Shown: positions 37,155-42,819, numbered from the stretch's first letter. The stretch: DNA of 64,000 bases from Aeromicrobium sp. (GCA_025964895.1 JAOPXY010000032.1:2495-66494), one strand, 5' to 3'. The notes: generated by a model not told the origin, from the sequence alone. Numbers and translations are program-made.

Positions 37155-37172
37155 TTGTCACGCAAGTGAGCG
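37155..37172. promoter_or_regulatory. TTGTCAC-N4-GTGACAA-like site (weak)
   Basis: TTGTCAC GCAA GTGAGCG. Confidence 0.4.
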
Positions 37173-37358
37173 AATCGGGCATCGGACGGGTAGTTGGGTG
37201 CACTTCTCGCCTTTCCACCTGGGCTACCGTCAGGCACTGCCCGATCGGTTCTGCGACCTGCTGGCGGGAGCCTGACCGGCTGCCCGCAGTCAGTTAAGGC
37301 ATCGGGGCGAAGGGGTGTCCAGCGATTCGGGTCGAGCAGGCAGCGCCGACATCAAGAC

Positions 37359-37376
37359 TTGTCACGTAGGTGATAA
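37359..37376. promoter_or_regulatory. TTGTCAC-N4-GTGACAA-like site
   Basis: TTGTCAC GTAG GTGATAA; 20 of 22 bp identical to 42286-42307. Confidence 0.7.
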
Positions 37377-37414
37377 ATCTCGATGTCGGCGCTGTGTCAA
37401 CGCGACGACGCGCG

Positions 37415-38368
37415 CTACGGGATGGGGATGAGCGGTGGGATGGCCTCTGGCGCGCAAATGGCTTCCGGCGAGGTCTGGCCGGGCCTGGGAGGCCCGTTGT
37501 TCGTCGACGGCGGCGGCAACCGAACCTGGCAATTGATCGACCCGACGTTGAGCTGGACGGGGTTGTCGGGTCCGGAGACGGCGCTGGTCAGCACGCGTGA
37601 GACGTCCTCACCGCTGGCCGTGAGGCACCCGGCGAACGGCGGGATGTCGACCGTTCCCTTCAGGAATCCACCCGCCGAAGCTCCGAAGTGCCCGGTGTTC
37701 CAGGGATGCTGCTGGTCGACGGTGGGGTCGTCGAACCAGTAGCCCTTTCCGACGAGCGACAGCTTGCCGGGCTCCGCCGTCTGGCACTGCTGGCTCAGAG
37801 CGAGGTCGACCCCGTCAACCGCCAGGCGGGTCACGCGGACGGTCAGCCGGTCCTCGATCACCGTGTCGAGCGCCTGAGTGTCTGTGACGTGACCAGGCGG
37901 GACAATTCGGTACTTGTCCATCAAGGACTCGAAGACGATGGGCGCCGGAAAGCCATCCTTCCGGCGCTGCAGCAGCTGCACGGTCGCCTCGACCGGGATC
38001 GCGCCGAAGGCGACGGTGCGCACGGTCGACAGCGGCGACATGCCGTAGTTGTGCTCCGAGCCAGCGGGTGCGACGAAGTAGACCGAGTTCGTCACGACGC
38101 TGGTACTCGACCGCGGGTCACTCGGCGGGTGGTTTCGGTTCGTGACGACGGCGAACACGGCCACGGACTGCATGGGCACCTGCACCCACTGGCGTGCCCG
38201 CAGCGTCTGGGTAGTGCCGGTCTGCGGGGCGCCGGTCCAGCCTCCCTGTCCCGGGGGCTGCGGCAGCCCTGGGTATGGTCCCTCCGCGGCGCTTCCGGAG
38301 GCATAGCCTCCCAGCACCAGGACGGCGGCTGACAGTCCGAGCACCCGGCGCGTGCGCCGGTGCCGCAT
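37415..38368 (-). CDS. Secreted Cys-containing beta-rich hypothetical protein
   Basis: Signal peptide MRHRRTRRVLGLSAAVLVLGG; CQTAEP, GGFLKGTVDIPPFAGC, VSGPDNP; similar to the 39380 protein. Confidence 0.75.
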   Translation of the reverse strand: MRHRRTRRVLGLSAAVLVLGGYASGSAAEGPYPGLPQPPGQGGWTGAPQTGTTQTLRARQWVQVPMQSVAVFAVVTNRNHPPSDPRSSTSVVTNSVYFVAPAGSEHNYGMSPLSTVRTVAFGAIPVEATVQLLQRRKDGFPAPIVFESLMDKYRIVPPGHVTDTQALDTVIEDRLTVRVTRLAVDGVDLALSQQCQTAEPGKLSLVGKGYWFDDPTVDQQHPWNTGHFGASAGGFLKGTVDIPPFAGCLTASGEDVSRVLTSAVSGPDNPVQLNVGSINCQVRLPPPSTNNGPPRPGQTSPEAICAPEAIPPLIPIP

Positions 38369-38466
38369 GGGTGATCTCAACACGGGAGTCACCGTCGCAC
38401 GACGAGTTCGCATCGACAACAAGTTCGCCGGTTCCCGGTGCCTGGGCGAAGAAAACGTCCGCAAAG

Positions 38467-38484
38467 TTGTTACGCGCGTGACAA
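38467..38484. promoter_or_regulatory. TTGTCAC-N4-GTGACAA-like site
   Basis: TTGTTAC GCGC GTGACAA in the divergent intergenic region. Confidence 0.7.
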
Positions 38485-38561
38485 TCCAGCCACGAATTTC
38501 CCGGATAGGGCTCGATCTGCTGGACGACCTGTCGCCATCGGCGTAGACGTTCTGGTCAGGA

Positions 38562-38577
38562 CGTGACGCACGTCACG
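38562..38577. promoter_or_regulatory. CRP/GlxR-like site
   Basis: CGTGA-CGCACG-TCACG against consensus TGTGA-N6-TCACA. Confidence 0.45.
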
Positions 38578-38605
38578 TCGCCCACAACGATCAAGCGGAG
38601 GAATC

Positions 38606-39259
38606 ATGTTCAAGAAGGCAGCAGTAGTTCTCGGAGCGTCGGCGGTCGTCGCGCTGGCCGGCCCAGCCATGGCGGCGGCGCCCTACACCGTGGACGTCGG
38701 CACGTTCACGTCCGGATCGCACAGCTTCACCGCGTCCACGACAGTGCCGATCGCCTTCTCCGTCGCCCACGGCAGCAACACGGTGAACCTGGGCTGTTCG
38801 TCGGGCACGGCCAACGGCTCGGTCACGGCCGGCACGAACGCGACCGGTGCCAACGTCGGCGCCATCGGGTCCAGCTCCTGGACGGGCTGCATCGGGCCGG
38901 GCAACCTCGCGATGAACGTGACCCAGGTCGGGACGTGGAGCCTCAACCTCACGGGCAACGAGACGGCCGCGGTCACCGACGACATCGACGGCAACATCGG
39001 GAACGTCGAGGCGCACGTGGCCGCTGCGCTCTCCGCCGGCCTCTGCAACTTCGATGTGGTGGGTGAGGCCGCCGTGATCTTCCACGAGACCGTCAACGCC
39101 GGCGGTGGGCAGGATCTGCAGGTCGCCGAGAACGGCACCGGCAACCTGTTCGTGGACAACGTCGTGGGCTGCTTCGGCGCGATCTCGAACGGGGATCCGG
39201 CGAGCTTCGCCACGAACTACAACGTCAACTCGCCCGATGGCGCGATCAACGTCCGGTAG
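38606..39259 (+). CDS. Secreted 4-Cys beta-rich hypothetical protein
   Basis: Signal peptide ending AMA-A; GGAGG RBS; Gly/Asn/Thr/Val rich; Cys in LGCSS, TGCIG, GLCNF, VGCFG. Confidence 0.85.
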   Translation: MFKKAAVVLGASAVVALAGPAMAAAPYTVDVGTFTSGSHSFTASTTVPIAFSVAHGSNTVNLGCSSGTANGSVTAGTNATGANVGAIGSSSWTGCIGPGNLAMNVTQVGTWSLNLTGNETAAVTDDIDGNIGNVEAHVAAALSAGLCNFDVVGEAAVIFHETVNAGGGQDLQVAENGTGNLFVDNVVGCFGAISNGDPASFATNYNVNSPDGAINVR

Positions 39260-39379
39260 ATGGCTGAGACCGGTGCTGCTCGTCATGCGGTGTGCCGGGA
39301 CGGCGACGTCGTCCCGGCACACCGCCGACCTGAATTGACCTCCCGCAGATCACGCCTCGCACAACGCACAGGAGACATC

Positions 39380-41357: not shown

Positions 41358-41383
41358 CGGCGATGGGGACTGGGGCGCCGGCG

Positions 41384-42154
41384 TCACGTCTTCTGACGGT
41401 ACCGGGGCCGGCCGCTCGTGTCGGCCAACCGCCACGCGGGCATGTTGATCTCCAGCATGCCCAGCAGCGGGAGGGTCTGCTCGGGATCCGACAGGCGTTC
41501 GCCGAACAGCTCGCGCAGGACCTGCAGCCGTCGCCGGACGGTGTTGGGATGCGTGTCGAGCCGTTCGGCGAGCGCCGGTGCGCTGGCGTGGGTCTTCAGC
41601 CACAGCAGCAGGGTCTCGCCGAGAGTCGCCCGCACGTGCGTGCGCAGGTCGTTGAGCGGAGCCAGCACCTCGACAGCGGTGTGCCTGGCCAGGACAGGGT
41701 CGGCATGCAACCACAGCGCGGGCCCGTGCTGGGCGCACTCGATCACGCCCTGGTCGCCGATTAGCCCGTCGCGGACCAGCTCGAGAGCGCTGAGCGTCCA
41801 GCGGCGAGCACGAGGAACCTCCTCGAGGCACACCGCCCAGGTGACGGCGATCCGGGTGATGTTGGGCGACGCGGCGAGCACCTCGACGAGCCGCCGGGTG
41901 GCCCCTTCCGCGCCCACGACGGTGAGCCGGTCGTCCGACGGCATGACGAGGACGTTCGTTCCCGGCTGTGGCCCCGAGCGGCCGTGGAAGTCCGCCGACA
42001 CCTCGGCGGTGGCGACGACGAGTTCTGCAGGTTCCGTCCAGTCGGCGTGACGCGCGAGCTCGACGATCTCGTGGCGAGGACGTCCGTCCAGCAGGGCCGT
42101 CAGCAGGCGCGCTCGCGGGTCCGGAGAGGCGGGTACGTGGTGGTCGGTGGTCAT
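41384..42154 (-). CDS. PucR/CdaR family regulator 3 (lacks the N-terminal domain)
   Basis: LGETLLLWLKT...LAERLDTHPNTVRRR; 256 aa; GAAGGGGA before the ATG. Confidence 0.85.
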   Translation of the reverse strand: MTTDHHVPASPDPRARLLTALLDGRPRHEIVELARHADWTEPAELVVATAEVSADFHGRSGPQPGTNVLVMPSDDRLTVVGAEGATRRLVEVLAASPNITRIAVTWAVCLEEVPRARRWTLSALELVRDGLIGDQGVIECAQHGPALWLHADPVLARHTAVEVLAPLNDLRTHVRATLGETLLLWLKTHASAPALAERLDTHPNTVRRRLQVLRELFGERLSDPEQTLPLLGMLEINMPAWRLADTSGRPRYRQKT

Positions 42155-42287
42155 GGGACTTCCCCTTCGAGCAGCGGTGCCGAATCGGCAGGGTGGGGGA
42201 CGGATCCCCGCGCTGATCTCATTAGTGGCCCGCTCCGCCGGGCCCGTCCAGCGTGCGAGTGCGCCTCGCGGGTGAGATGGGGAAAAC

Positions 42288-42305
42288 TTGTCACCTAGAT
42301 GATAA
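42288..42305. promoter_or_regulatory. TTGTCAC-N4-GTGACAA-like site
   Basis: TTGTCAC CTAG ATGATAA upstream of regulator 3. Confidence 0.7.
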
Positions 42306-42395
42306 ATTTTGCCCGGACTGGGGCACGCGTCCTGTCGTGGAACATGCGTTCGCAACGGGCGCAGTCCTGTGTTTCGGGCCGGGGAAGCGCCCAAG

Positions 42396-42413
42396 TGGTT
42401 ACCCGCGTGACCA
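42396..42413. promoter_or_regulatory. Variant site TGGTTAC-N4-GTGACCA
   Basis: TGGTTAC CCGC GTGACCA; the variant is symmetric in both half-sites. Confidence 0.45.
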
Positions 42414-42471
42414 TCTGGACTCGAAAAGTCCTCGGATCGGTGATTCGGCTGGACATCGCTCGACCGGGCGG

Positions 42472-42684
42472 CTACTCGCGCAGGAGCTCCAGCGGGGTGA
42501 CCTCGAGGAGCTCCGCGAGCGTCTCGAGCGACTTGAGGCTGATGTTGCGCTCACCCCGCTCGAGGGCGCCGGCGTAGGTCCGGTGGAAGCCCAGGTACTC
42601 GGCGAACTTCTCCTGGCTCAGGCCGAGCGCCTCGCGGCGCTTCTTCAGGTTGCGCCCGAGTGCCTTCTGAAGGTCTCCGCTCAT
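42472..42684 (-). CDS. XRE (HTH_3) regulator resembling R-M controller (C) proteins
   Basis: 70 aa; LSQEKFAEYLGFHRTYAGALERGERNISL. Confidence 0.88.
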   Translation of the reverse strand: MSGDLQKALGRNLKKRREALGLSQEKFAEYLGFHRTYAGALERGERNISLKSLETLAELLEVTPLELLRE

Positions 42685-42702
42685 GGGGACGAGACTGGCT
42701 GA

Positions 42703-42738
42703 TCGCTACTGATCCCTCTACAGACTGATGAGTAGCGA
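42703..42738. promoter_or_regulatory. Inverted repeat upstream of the XRE gene (possible autoregulatory box)
   Basis: TCGCTACT-N20-AGTAGCGA, containing GACT-GATG-AGT. Confidence 0.5.
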
Positions 42739-42801
42739 CCGCGTGGCACGTTCCCATGATGACAGGCTCCTCGCCGGCCTCATTCGGACGCCCGGCAAAT
42801 G

Positions 42802-42819
42802 TTGTGACGCACCTGACAA
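42802..42819. promoter_or_regulatory. TTGTCAC-N4-GTGACAA-like site upstream of the Mce operon
   Basis: TTGTGAC GCAC CTGACAA. Confidence 0.65.

What the first reader, a model, noticed from the sequence alone, without database searches (positions are those of the whole stretch)
37155..42819. Six copies of an 18-bp palindrome define a putative local regulon
Consensus TTGTCAC-N4-GTGACAA occurs at 37155 (weak), 37359, 38467, 42288, 42396 (symmetric TGGT/ACCA variant) and 42802. All are intergenic, four have an A-rich left flank, and the 37357-37378 and 42286-42307 copies match at 20 of 22 bp. I did not notice it elsewhere in the window by eye. The TGT-N10-ACA geometry fits Fis-type HTH proteins, the HTH class of PucR/CdaR regulators, so the local PucRs are the obvious candidates (inference).
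Basis: partly seen in the sequence, partly recalled or inferred. Interest (0 to 1): 0.75.

Follow-up and report, generated by a model that had tools for sequence, protein, structure and literature searches.

The report
Operator motif of a local PucR regulon
A real, conserved 18-24 bp palindrome (TTGTCA-N6-TGACAA) marks the promoters of a lipid-importer (mce) operon, several secreted proteins and the neighbouring PucR/MabR-type regulator genes in Nocardioides-like soil bacteria, and it is most likely the binding site of those PucR regulators, not of the adjacent small XRE protein.

Summary
TTGTCAC-N4-GTGACAA occurs 4 times at <=2 mismatches (0.05 expected) and 6 times at <=3 (1.3 expected). All copies lie in intergenic DNA between 37155 and 42819. 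Site 37155 is only a half-site. Site 42396 is degenerate but is the positional equivalent of strong sites in relatives.

The motif is conserved. I found 43 sites (40 unique) in 13 related loci (244 kb) from Nocardioides, Aeromicrobium and related MAGs. It was absent from 1.09 Mb of control actinobacterial DNA.

It tracks PucR-type regulator genes and their targets: the mce operon, a ~210-aa secreted all-beta protein family, RCC1/Ig proteins and the PucR genes themselves. It persists where no XRE gene is present (N. alkalitolerans, L090, L092).

The XRE family has its own, different upstream palindrome, GCTACT...AGTAGC. This element is widely conserved and is also present in the window.

The local PucRs are MabR-type (globin-like N domain, GGDEF-like domain, HTH_30). 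The published MabR operator is TTGT-N9-ACAA; this motif is TTGT-N10-ACAA.

This is a new regulon and operator for a known regulator family: solid and moderately interesting.

The parts
42802..42819 (.). Operator site TTGTGACGCACCTGACAA, between XRE (divergent, ATG 42684) and the mce operon (ATG 42997)
   Evidence: 2 mismatches to the pattern, PWM 26.9 bits. An equivalent site lies 130-190 bp upstream of mce in L008, L031, L051, L090, L092, L094, L096, L100, L101 and L102.
42396..42413 (.). Degenerate operator site TGGTTACCCGCGTGACCA, 59 bp after the XRE stop and upstream of PucR2
   Evidence: PWM 19.9 bits. It is the positional equivalent of strong sites just downstream of XRE in L031 (8240), L051 (8235), L096 (8874), L101 (5583) and L102 (5861).
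42288..42305 (.). Operator site TTGTCACCTAGATGATAA, about 131 bp upstream of the PucR2 start (42154)
   Evidence: PWM 26.7 bits. It lies 108 bp from the 42396 site; paired sites are common in relatives.
38467..38484 (.). Operator site TTGTTACGCGCGTGACAA, between the divergent genes hyp317 (ATG 38368, -) and sec1 (ATG 38606, +)
   Evidence: PWM 29.1 bits. The same divergent gene pair carries 1-2 sites in L031, L090, L091/L094, L099 and L103.
37359..37376 (.). Operator site TTGTCACGTAGGTGATAA, between the hyp317 stop (37415) and the RCC1/Ig gene start (37015). It is embedded in a 54-nt palindrome at 37341-37394.
   Evidence: PWM 28.2 bits. The hairpin folds at -40.8 kcal/mol, z = -9.4. RCC1/Ig genes have upstream sites in L051, L092 and L103.
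37155..37172 (.). Doubtful half-site TTGTCACGCAAGTGAGCG, 140 bp upstream of the RCC1/Ig gene
   Evidence: 3 mismatches, all in the right half; PWM below 14 bits. No comparative support.
41384..42154 (-). PucR2, 256 aa: C-terminal (GGDEF-like + HTH_30) half of a MabR-type regulator with no N-terminal sensor domain. Candidate binder; two sites upstream.
   Evidence: HTH_30 at 46.5 bits against a cutoff of 27. Its best homologues are full-length PucRs next to mce in N. alkalitolerans and A. endophyticum. Short forms are conserved (P0002, P0003, and the 232-aa gene in L101).
40182..41357 (+). PucR1, 391 aa: full-length MabR-type regulator. Candidate binder.
   Evidence: HTH_30 at 55.9 bits. AF2 model with pLDDT 87; best PDB match is the MabR C-domain 9f80 (E 6e-6), then 3onq; the N-terminal half is all-helical and globin-like. 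Precomputed Pfam lists PucR-like_N and RsbRD_N for the near-identical protein.
33672..35015 (-). PucR3, 447 aa: directly downstream of, and probably co-transcribed with, the RCC1/Ig gene. Candidate binder.
   Evidence: HTH_30 at 54.6 bits. Orthologues at 47-48% identity in L092, L094 and L096 all lie behind operator sites.
42997..52548 (+). mce operon (mceG-yrbEA fusion, yrbEB, six MlaD/Mce genes): target
   Evidence: Pfam ABC_tran + MlaE, MlaE, and MlaD/Mce4_CUP1 on five of the six predicted Mce ORFs; the ORF at about 48.0-48.9 kb was not scanned. An operator lies upstream in all relatives.
38606..40000 (+). sec1 (38606-39259) and sec2 (39380-40000): secreted ~210-aa proteins of unknown function; targets
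   Evidence: No Pfam or NCBIfam hit. The sec2 family has 99 homologues, almost all in Nocardioidaceae. The all-beta model has pLDDT 89 and no PDB match.
37415..38368 (-). hyp317: protein with a signal-peptide-like N-terminus and no family hit; target (divergent from sec1)
   Evidence: the same arrangement occurs in L031, L094 and L103.
35174..37015 (-). RCC1-repeat / Big_3_5 protein, 613 aa; target
   Evidence: Pfam RCC1_2, WD40_RLD and Big_3_5. Homologues lie behind sites in L051, L092 and L103.
42472..42684 (-). 70-aa XRE regulator: a neighbour, not the binder of this motif
   Evidence: HTH_3 at 58.2 bits. 77 loci with XRE homologues elsewhere lack the motif. The motif persists in XRE-less loci.
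42705..42736 (-). The XRE family's own conserved 32-bp palindrome (minus strand GCTACTCATCAGTCTGTAGAGGGATCAGTAGC), 21-52 nt upstream of the XRE ATG
   Evidence: The same element lies upstream of 51 of the 92 XRE-homologue copies found in 80 loci.
40144..40159 (.). Compact XRE-type box GCTACCGATGAGTAGC, 23 nt upstream of the PucR1 start
   Evidence: Only match in the window. It is conserved at the same place in L101 (GCTACTCCTGAGTAGC, 24 nt upstream of the PucR1 orthologue). Such boxes occur only in XRE-bearing loci.
42873..42896 (+). Conserved block in the mce leader: CRP/GlxR-like GTGA-N7-CACA followed by CCTACGnT (TAnnnT, -10-like)
   Evidence: Alignment of eight mce upstream regions.

Best explanation
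The palindrome (full form about AAnTTGTCAYsCGsRTGACAAnTT) is the operator of the MabR-type PucR-family regulators encoded in the same cluster: PucR1, PucR3 and the sensor-less PucR2.

Proposed mechanism. A regulator dimer, formed through the C-terminal GGDEF-like/HTH domains, places its two recognition helices in successive major grooves on the two TTGTCA half-sites. Where two operators lie 30-150 bp apart, a tetramer may bridge them.

The regulon is local. It comprises the mce lipid-uptake operon, a family of ~210-aa secreted beta-proteins, hyp317, an RCC1/Ig surface protein, and the PucR genes themselves (autoregulation).

By analogy with MabR, I think the full-length paralogues act as effector-dependent activators binding upstream of the promoter. 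The operator centre would lie at about -92.5, or -81.5 in L031, relative to a TSS inferred from the conserved TACGnT. The effector is probably a lipid-derived ligand such as a long-chain acyl-CoA. PucR2 could occupy the same sites without sensing.

The neighbouring XRE is a separate regulator with its own operator. One of its boxes lies in front of PucR1, so it probably feeds into this circuit.

Shown: the motif, its enrichment, its conservation, its association with PucR genes and not with XRE, and the fold class of PucR1. Inferred: binding itself, oligomeric mode, sign of regulation, effector.
For: 1. Enrichment and clustering in the window.

2. Conservation: 43 sites of at least 18 bits in 13 loci (244 kb). 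All 27 sites in loci with independent gene calls are intergenic. There are 0 sites of at least 16 bits in 77 control loci (1,094,223 bp), which include other Nocardioides and Aeromicrobium DNA.

3. A PucR-type gene lies next to the sites in every locus. In N. alkalitolerans L094 (no XRE-type gene in 19 kb), in L090 and in L092 the mce-PucR intergenic region carries the site without any XRE between.

4. XRE homologues have a different conserved operator. Boxes of that type are found only in XRE-bearing loci.

5. The PucR1 model matches the MabR C-domain 9f80 (E 6.3e-6) and 3onq, and has a globin-like helical N domain. The family profile hits 9f80 at E 1.6e-6, with recognition helix VHPNTVRYRLKR in MabR against VHPQTVRHRMRA, THPNTVRRRLQV and VHPQTVRYRWKR here.

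6. The MabR operator used for EMSA/ITC is GTTTTGTTGGTTATATACAAAAA, which is TTGT-N9-ACAA (PMC11617747). Other PucR-type regulators bind 17-24 bp inverted repeats, often two per promoter (PMC7652997).

7. MabR is an activator whose DNA affinity is raised by acyl-CoAs longer than C18 (PMC5541348).

8. In the mce leaders the operator keeps a fixed distance to a conserved block. The only indel between them is 11 nt, one helical turn.
Against: There are no binding data. No whole genome could be scanned, so sites elsewhere in these genomes, which would point to a broader regulon or an unlinked regulator, are not excluded.

The HTH_30 recognition helix is similar across the whole PucR family, so it does not explain specificity by itself.

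The spacing differs by 1 bp from the MabR operator.

Lapillicoccus (L098) has the same mce-PucR-sec synteny but not this motif, and Aeromicrobium CTD01 (L100) keeps it only at mce. The regulator-motif link therefore evolves and cannot be taken as fixed.

My own hmmscan found only HTH_30 in PucR1 and PucR3. The N-domain Pfam hits come from precomputed annotation.

The -10 assignment, and hence the 'activator' call, rests on conservation alone. No sigma-70-type promoter was detected by the simple scan.
Confidence: 0.78

Rival explanations
1. The adjacent 70-aa XRE protein binds the palindrome and represses mce, PucR2 and the secreted-protein genes.
For: Small XRE dimers typically bind 14-20 bp palindromes. 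In the window, one site lies upstream and one just downstream of the XRE gene, and the same holds in L031, L051, L096, L101 and L102.
Against: The motif is present at the same promoters in loci with no XRE gene: L094, L090, L091, L092 and L099. 77 loci with XRE homologues of 56-67% identity and an invariant recognition helix (H34, R35, T36) have no such site in 1.09 Mb. The family has its own conserved 32-bp operator just upstream of the gene, also in the window. The distance from site to XRE start varies from 126 to 570 bp, whereas the distance to mce is stable.
Confidence: 0.04
2. The sites belong to a global regulator with a similar consensus: Rex (TTGTGAA-N4-TTCACAA) or CRP/GlxR (TGTGA-N6-TCACA).
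For: The motif shares 10 of 14 specified positions with the Rex operator (PMC5355995) and the 5-6-5 geometry of CRP sites (PMC2724278). 15 of 80 half-sites have G at position 5.
Against: Position 5 is C in 61 of 80 half-sites. Position 7 is A, the base in the Rex consensus at that position, in only 2 of 80. Sites occur only in PucR clusters: none in the other 58 kb of the window or in 1.09 Mb of control DNA. The targets are not respiratory or central-metabolism genes. A separate CRP-like GTGA-N7-CACA block is conserved in the same mce leaders, so CRP appears to have its own site there. No CRP or Rex gene was found among the window ORFs scanned or in the gene calls of the related loci.
Confidence: 0.06
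3. A clade-specific regulator encoded elsewhere in the genome (not PucR, not XRE) binds the motif, and the PucR genes are merely among its targets.
For: Co-occurrence is not binding. The PucR genes are themselves preceded by sites, as any target would be. Only about 20 kb per genome was seen.
Against: A PucR-type gene is the only regulator present next to the sites in all 13 loci. The closest characterised relative uses a TTGT..ACAA palindrome (PMC11617747). Local autoregulated regulators are the usual case for such tightly clustered sites (general knowledge).
Confidence: 0.1
4. The palindromes are not protein sites but RNA or DNA structural elements: terminators, or a small dispersed repeat.
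For: The 37359 copy sits in a 54-nt hairpin (-40.8 kcal/mol) right after a stop codon. The 42396 copy also follows a stop codon.
Against: Most copies lie in divergent promoter regions with no upstream gene to terminate. Flanks outside about 24 bp are not conserved between copies. The arms are short (6-7 bp) with a variable centre. The large hairpin is unique to one copy.
Confidence: 0.02

Closest known systems
MabR (Rv2242) and its fasII operator in Mycobacterium
   Same: The domain architecture matches: globin-like N domain, GGDEF-like domain, HTH_30. MabR is the best structural and profile match. Both operators are palindromes with outer TTGT/ACAA half-sites. Both lie next to a lipid-related operon. 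Several paralogues per genome occur in both cases (PMC11617747).
   Different: The spacing is TTGT-N10-ACAA here against N9 in MabR, and the inner bases differ (TCA/TGA against T-rich). The target is an Mce importer plus secreted proteins, not FAS-II. Identity to MabR is only about 19%. One local paralogue lacks the sensor domain.
C. glutamicum GabR; B. subtilis PutR and AdeR (PucR-type activators)
   Same: These are local regulators, divergent from their target, that bind 17-24 bp inverted repeats. GabR uses two repeats per promoter, placed just upstream of -35 (PMC7652997). Paired sites are common here too.
   Different: The sequences are unrelated. GabR lacks the GGDEF-like domain and is an octamer. 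The targets are amino-acid catabolism genes.
Rex operator (ROP) TTGTGAANNNNTTCACAA
   Same: 18-bp palindrome with the same outer TTGT..ACAA and the same length (PMC5355995).
   Different: Positions 5 and 7 of each half-site differ consistently (C and Y here; G and A in ROP). The distribution is local, not genome-wide, and the target genes are different.
Known mce regulators: Mce1R/Mce2R (GntR/FadR), Mce3R and KstR (TetR). This list is from my own knowledge.
   Same: A dedicated regulator encoded beside an mce operon, with operators in the mce promoter.
   Different: Different regulator family and motif. A full-text search found no paper linking a PucR-type regulator to an mce operon.

Membership tests
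PucR family regulator, MabR type (candidate binder) | C-terminal PucR HTH (Pfam HTH_30, PF13556) above the gathering score | tested here: met
   PucR1 55.9 bits, PucR2 46.5 bits, PucR3 54.6 bits; cutoff 27.
PucR family regulator, MabR type (candidate binder) | GGDEF-like alpha/beta domain plus HTH, with a fold matching the MabR C-domain or 3onq | tested here: met
   PucR1 model: 9f80 at E 6.3e-6 with probability 1.00; 3onq at E 3e-5. Profile against PDB: 9f80 at E 1.6e-6.
PucR family regulator, MabR type (candidate binder) | N-terminal globin-like (RsbRD_N / PucR-like_N) sensor domain | tested here: inconclusive
   In the PucR1 model, residues 15-176 are all-helical and match globin-fold phycobiliproteins (TM about 0.5, E 0.06-0.3). 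Precomputed Pfam lists both N-domain families for the near-identical protein. My own hmmscan did not report them. PucR2 lacks this domain.
Operator of a PucR/MabR-type regulator | Inverted repeat of 17-24 bp in the promoter regions of the regulator gene and adjacent targets | tested here: met
   18-24 bp palindrome. 43 sites, all in intergenic regions next to PucR genes or their neighbours.
Operator of a PucR/MabR-type regulator | Direct, sequence-specific binding by the regulator | not testable with these tools
   Needs EMSA, DAP-seq or ChIP-seq.
Rex operator | TTGTGAA-N4-TTCACAA with conserved G5 and A7 | tested here: not met
   Position 5: C 61, G 15, T 4. Position 7: C 44, T 24, G 10, A 2. 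Counts are out of 80 half-sites.
CRP/GlxR site | TGTGA-N6-TCACA, with sites spread over many operons | tested here: not met
   The core is TGTCA-N6-TGACA. No sites outside PucR clusters. A separate CRP-like block exists in the mce leader.
Operator of the adjacent XRE protein | Co-occurrence of the motif with the XRE gene (autoregulation) | tested here: not met
   The motif is present without XRE (L090, L092, L094, L099) and absent from 77 XRE loci. XRE has another conserved operator.

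The most novel reading that the evidence does not exclude
The cluster is a multi-paralogue MabR-type circuit. Several sensor-bearing PucRs, each reading a different envelope or lipid signal, compete or hetero-oligomerise on one shared operator with a naturally sensor-less C-domain-only paralogue (PucR2), which acts as an effector-blind anti-activator or placeholder. A widely mobile XRE module with its own operator gates one paralogue (PucR1). Together they would control a previously unrecognised Mce-linked set of secreted beta-proteins of new fold. 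This would be the first PucR-controlled Mce system.
Probability: 0.2. Interest if true: 0.6.

Novelty: new member of a known kind. Interest (0 to 1): 0.45.

Why it matters
Few PucR-family regulators have a known operator, and MabR-type ones (an actinomycete-specific architecture with five paralogues in M. tuberculosis) have essentially one.

This work adds three things. First, it gives a well-supported operator consensus for a second MabR-type subfamily. Second, it links that family to regulation of an Mce lipid importer; a full-text search found no paper with both 'PucR' and 'mce operon' apart from one unrelated hit. Third, it defines a compact, testable regulon that includes a clade-restricted family of secreted beta-proteins with a confident but unmatched fold.

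It also provides a clean way to separate two interleaved regulators (PucR and XRE) by phylogenetic co-occurrence.

It is not a new kind of mechanism.

Tried and rejected
- Metagenome contigs carrying the identical XRE (L001-L007) are 99.7-100% identical to the window and useless for footprinting.
- The PucR2 homologue search gave only 10 proteins. The first alignment was too diverse for a locus scan. The metagenome scan returned only 4 loci.
- The simple sigma-70 promoter scan found nothing in 36900-43100. A search for TAnnnT at a fixed distance from the sites showed no consistent -10 directly after the operator, so 'operator overlaps -35' was dropped.
- phmmer of PucR1 against PDB sequences found nothing; only the profile and the fold search reached MabR.
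- The P0007 (Mumia) look-up found no record.
- NCBIfam and Pfam gave no names for sec1, sec2 or hyp317. The fold search of sec2 gave no significant PDB match.
- Only soil DNA metagenome runs hold the region and no RNA run was listed, so TSS and expression could not be checked.
- No CRP or Rex gene was found among the window ORFs scanned. Not every small ORF was scanned.
- Spacing of paired sites (32-145 bp) shows no consistent helical phasing.

Full report
**The observation**

The six reported copies are at the stated coordinates.
- At <=3 mismatches to TTGTCAC-N4-GTGACAA there are 6 hits, against 1.30 expected from dinucleotide shuffles. No shuffle reached 6.
- At <=2 mismatches there are 4 hits (37359, 38467, 42288, 42802), against 0.05 expected.
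- No other position in the 64 kb matches at <=3 mismatches.
- All six are intergenic.

I built a position weight matrix (PWM) from 12 strong sites. It gives 26.7-29.1 bits for the four strong copies and 19.9 bits for 42396. Site 37155 scores below 14 bits: it has a perfect left half only. The conserved core is TTGTCA-N6-TGACAA, with an AA/TT extension on each side.

**Gene context**

| Coordinates | Strand | Gene |
|---|---|---|
| 33672-35015 | - | PucR3 |
| 35174-37015 | - | RCC1-repeat / Big_3_5 protein |
| 37415-38368 | - | hyp317, signal-peptide-like N-terminus |
| 38606-39259 | + | sec1, secreted ~210 aa |
| 39380-40000 | + | sec2, secreted ~210 aa |
| 40182-41357 | + | PucR1 |
| 41384-42154 | - | PucR2, 256 aa, C-terminal half only |
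| 42472-42684 | - | 70-aa XRE |
| 42997 to about 52548 | + | complete mce operon, starting with an mceG-yrbEA fusion |

The sites therefore sit as follows:
- between XRE and mce (42802);
- between the XRE stop and PucR2 (42396, 42288);
- between divergent hyp317 and sec1 (38467);
- upstream of the RCC1-PucR3 unit (37359, and doubtfully 37155).

**Is it conserved, and with what does it travel?**

Contigs with the identical XRE are the same organism and were uninformative.

A genome scan with an alignment of XRE homologues returned 80 loci across Actinomycetota. Only three of them share the mce-XRE-PucR synteny: L008, L031 (Aeromicrobium) and L051 (actinobacterium LLX17). Only these three carry the motif, at syntenic positions. 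The other 77 loci total 1,094,223 bp and include XRE genes from other Nocardioides and Aeromicrobium strains. They have no site of at least 16 bits.

I then searched from the PucR side and from the sec2 side. This gave loci from N. alkalitolerans, A. endophyticum, N. nitrophenolicus, Aeromicrobium CTD01 and several MAGs and metagenome contigs. The motif is found in the following arrangements:
- in mce/PucR divergent regions;
- between divergent PucR genes;
- upstream of sec-family genes;
- upstream of the hyp317-like gene;
- upstream of RCC1/Ig genes.

In total there are 43 sites of at least 18 bits (40 unique) in 13 loci (244 kb). All 27 sites in loci that came with independent gene calls are intergenic (with coordinates).

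**XRE or PucR?**

Three lines separate them.
1. In N. alkalitolerans (L094) the mce operon is directly divergent from a PucR gene, with the site between them and no XRE-type gene in 19 kb. L090 and L092 are similar.
2. The XRE family has an invariant recognition helix and its own conserved 32-bp element 20-30 nt upstream of the start codon. The consensus is ATGCTACTTATAAGTCTGTAGACCnTCAAGTAGCA. It is seen upstream of 51 of the 92 XRE-homologue copies in these loci. The window's copy is at 42705-42736.
3. Compact boxes of that type (GCTACnnnnnnGTAGC-like) occur only in XRE-bearing loci. One lies 23 nt upstream of PucR1 (40144-40159) and is conserved at the same place in L101.

So there are two interleaved cis-elements, each travelling with its own regulator. 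The finding's palindrome travels with the PucR genes.

**What kind of regulators are these?**

All three have HTH_30 well above threshold. A profile of the subfamily hits the MabR (Rv2242) C-domain 9f80 at E 1.6e-6 and 3onq at 5.8e-5.

The AlphaFold model of PucR1 has pLDDT 87.4. It shows a helical N domain (residues 15-176), an alpha/beta domain (197-296) and a helical HTH domain. Its best PDB matches are 9f80 (E 6.3e-6) and 3onq. The N domain matches globin-fold phycobiliproteins weakly. This is the MabR-type architecture described in PMC11617747. My own hmmscan did not report the N-domain Pfam families that the precomputed annotation lists. PucR2 corresponds to the MabR C-domain alone. Short forms recur in relatives, so it is probably functional.

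The MabR operator used for EMSA/ITC is GTTTTGTTGGTTATATACAAAAA, that is TTGT-N9-ACAA (PMC11617747). The motif here is TTGT-N10-ACAA. Other PucR-type regulators bind 17-24 bp inverted repeats, and GabR binds two per promoter (PMC7652997). MabR is an activator whose DNA affinity rises with acyl-CoAs longer than C18 (PMC5541348).

**Global-regulator rivals**

The Rex operator TTGTGAANNNNTTCACAA (PMC5355995) shares 10 of 14 positions with this motif. However, position 5 is C in 61 of 80 half-sites, and position 7 is A in only 2 of 80. The CRP/GlxR core TGTGA-N6-TCACA (PMC2724278) differs at the same position 5.

The sites are confined to PucR clusters. An alignment of eight mce leaders shows a separate conserved block about 55 nt downstream of the operator: CGTGA-N6-nCACA immediately followed by CCTACGnT. 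This looks like a CRP-type site plus a TAnnnT -10 element.

If that TACGnT is the -10, the operator centre lies near -92.5, and near -81.5 in L031, where 11 nt are missing. Those are typical positions for upstream activators, and the helical face is preserved. This, together with the MabR and GabR precedents, is why I lean towards activation. It is an inference.

**Limits**

- No binding or expression data exist. Only DNA metagenome runs hold this sequence.
- No full genome could be scanned.
- Lapillicoccus keeps the mce-PucR-sec synteny but has CCGGTCA repeats in place of this motif.
- Aeromicrobium CTD01 keeps the motif only at mce and has another repeated element at the other promoters.
- Specificity therefore drifts within the family.

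**Verdict**

This is a real, conserved operator of a local regulon. It is most probably bound by the cluster's MabR-type PucR regulators (confidence about 0.78). XRE is a separate, cross-wired regulator. It is a new regulon and operator for a known family.

Noticed in passing
window 42705-42736 (minus strand); loci L009-L087: The 70-aa XRE family carries a strongly conserved ~32-bp palindromic element (ATGCTACTTATAAGTCTGTAGACCnTCAAGTAGCA) 20-30 nt upstream of its start codon. It appears upstream of 51 of the 92 XRE-homologue copies found across many actinobacterial orders, and in Thermomicrobiales and Gemmatimonadaceae MAGs. Gene neighbours vary and include Lsr2-like genes. It looks like a self-contained, possibly mobile, autoregulated module.
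   Followed up: partly
window 40144-40159; L101 7718-7733: A compact XRE-type box (GCTACCGATGAGTAGC) lies 23 nt upstream of the PucR1 start and is conserved at the same place in the closest syntenic relative. This suggests that XRE controls PucR1.
   Followed up: partly
window 37341-37394: The 37359 operator copy is the centre of a 54-nt near-perfect hairpin (RNA fold -40.8 kcal/mol, z = -9.4) directly after the hyp317 stop codon. It has no T-run. It may double as a terminator or be a cruciform-prone site. The other copies lack it.
   Followed up: partly
window 42873-42896; mce leaders of L008, L031, L051, L090, L094, L096, L100: A conserved block CGTGA-N6-nCACA + CCTACGnT lies about 55 nt downstream of the operator in all mce leaders. 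It has CRP/GlxR-like half-sites next to a -10-like TAnnnT. In L031 an 11-nt deletion separates it from the operator.
   Followed up: partly
window 39380-40000 (sec2) and 38606-39259 (sec1): The secreted ~210-aa family has 99 homologues, in Nocardioidaceae plus Lapillicoccus, often in several tandem copies. The AlphaFold model is confident (pLDDT 89) and all-beta with long strands. There is no significant PDB match (best E 0.014, TM <= 0.47 to OmpW, Ail and LolA-like folds).
   Followed up: partly
window 41384-42154 (PucR2); L101 5831-6529; P0002, P0003: A sensor-less PucR consisting only of the GGDEF-like and HTH domains is conserved in several relatives (232-256 aa). This argues for a functional short paralogue, not a pseudogene.
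   Followed up: partly
L103 (14.6 kb), L102, L092: There is a striking local expansion of PucR paralogues, with 4-5 per 12-15 kb. L103 also has a 251-aa hybrid with an RsbRD_N sensor domain fused to an XRE-type HTH (12122-12877).
   Followed up: no
L100 about 7700, 8987, 11605; L098 6540-6660: In Aeromicrobium CTD01 the sec and PucR promoters carry a different repeated element (CTTCATACGGRCATCCGAACTC, 3 copies). In Lapillicoccus jejuensis the mce/PucR intergenic region has five CCGGTCA repeats. The cis-elements in this conserved gene cluster turn over between lineages.
   Followed up: no
window 42997-44769: The Mce ATPase (MceG/MlaF-like) is fused to the first YrbE/MlaE permease (590 aa). The fusion is conserved in Nocardioidaceae relatives but is split in Lapillicoccus.
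   Followed up: no
window 40182-41357, 33672-35015: My hmmscan against the local Pfam reported only HTH families for PucR1 and PucR3. The precomputed annotation of the near-identical protein lists PucR-like_N (PF25906) and RsbRD_N (PF14361). This discrepancy between resources is unexplained.
   Followed up: partly
window 27392-31368: An ordinary dnaK-(grpE)-dnaJ-hspR (MerR) heat-shock operon lies upstream of the cluster. Other regulators in the window are MarR (2920-3354), TetR (23014-23664) and IclR (60234-61034).
   Followed up: no
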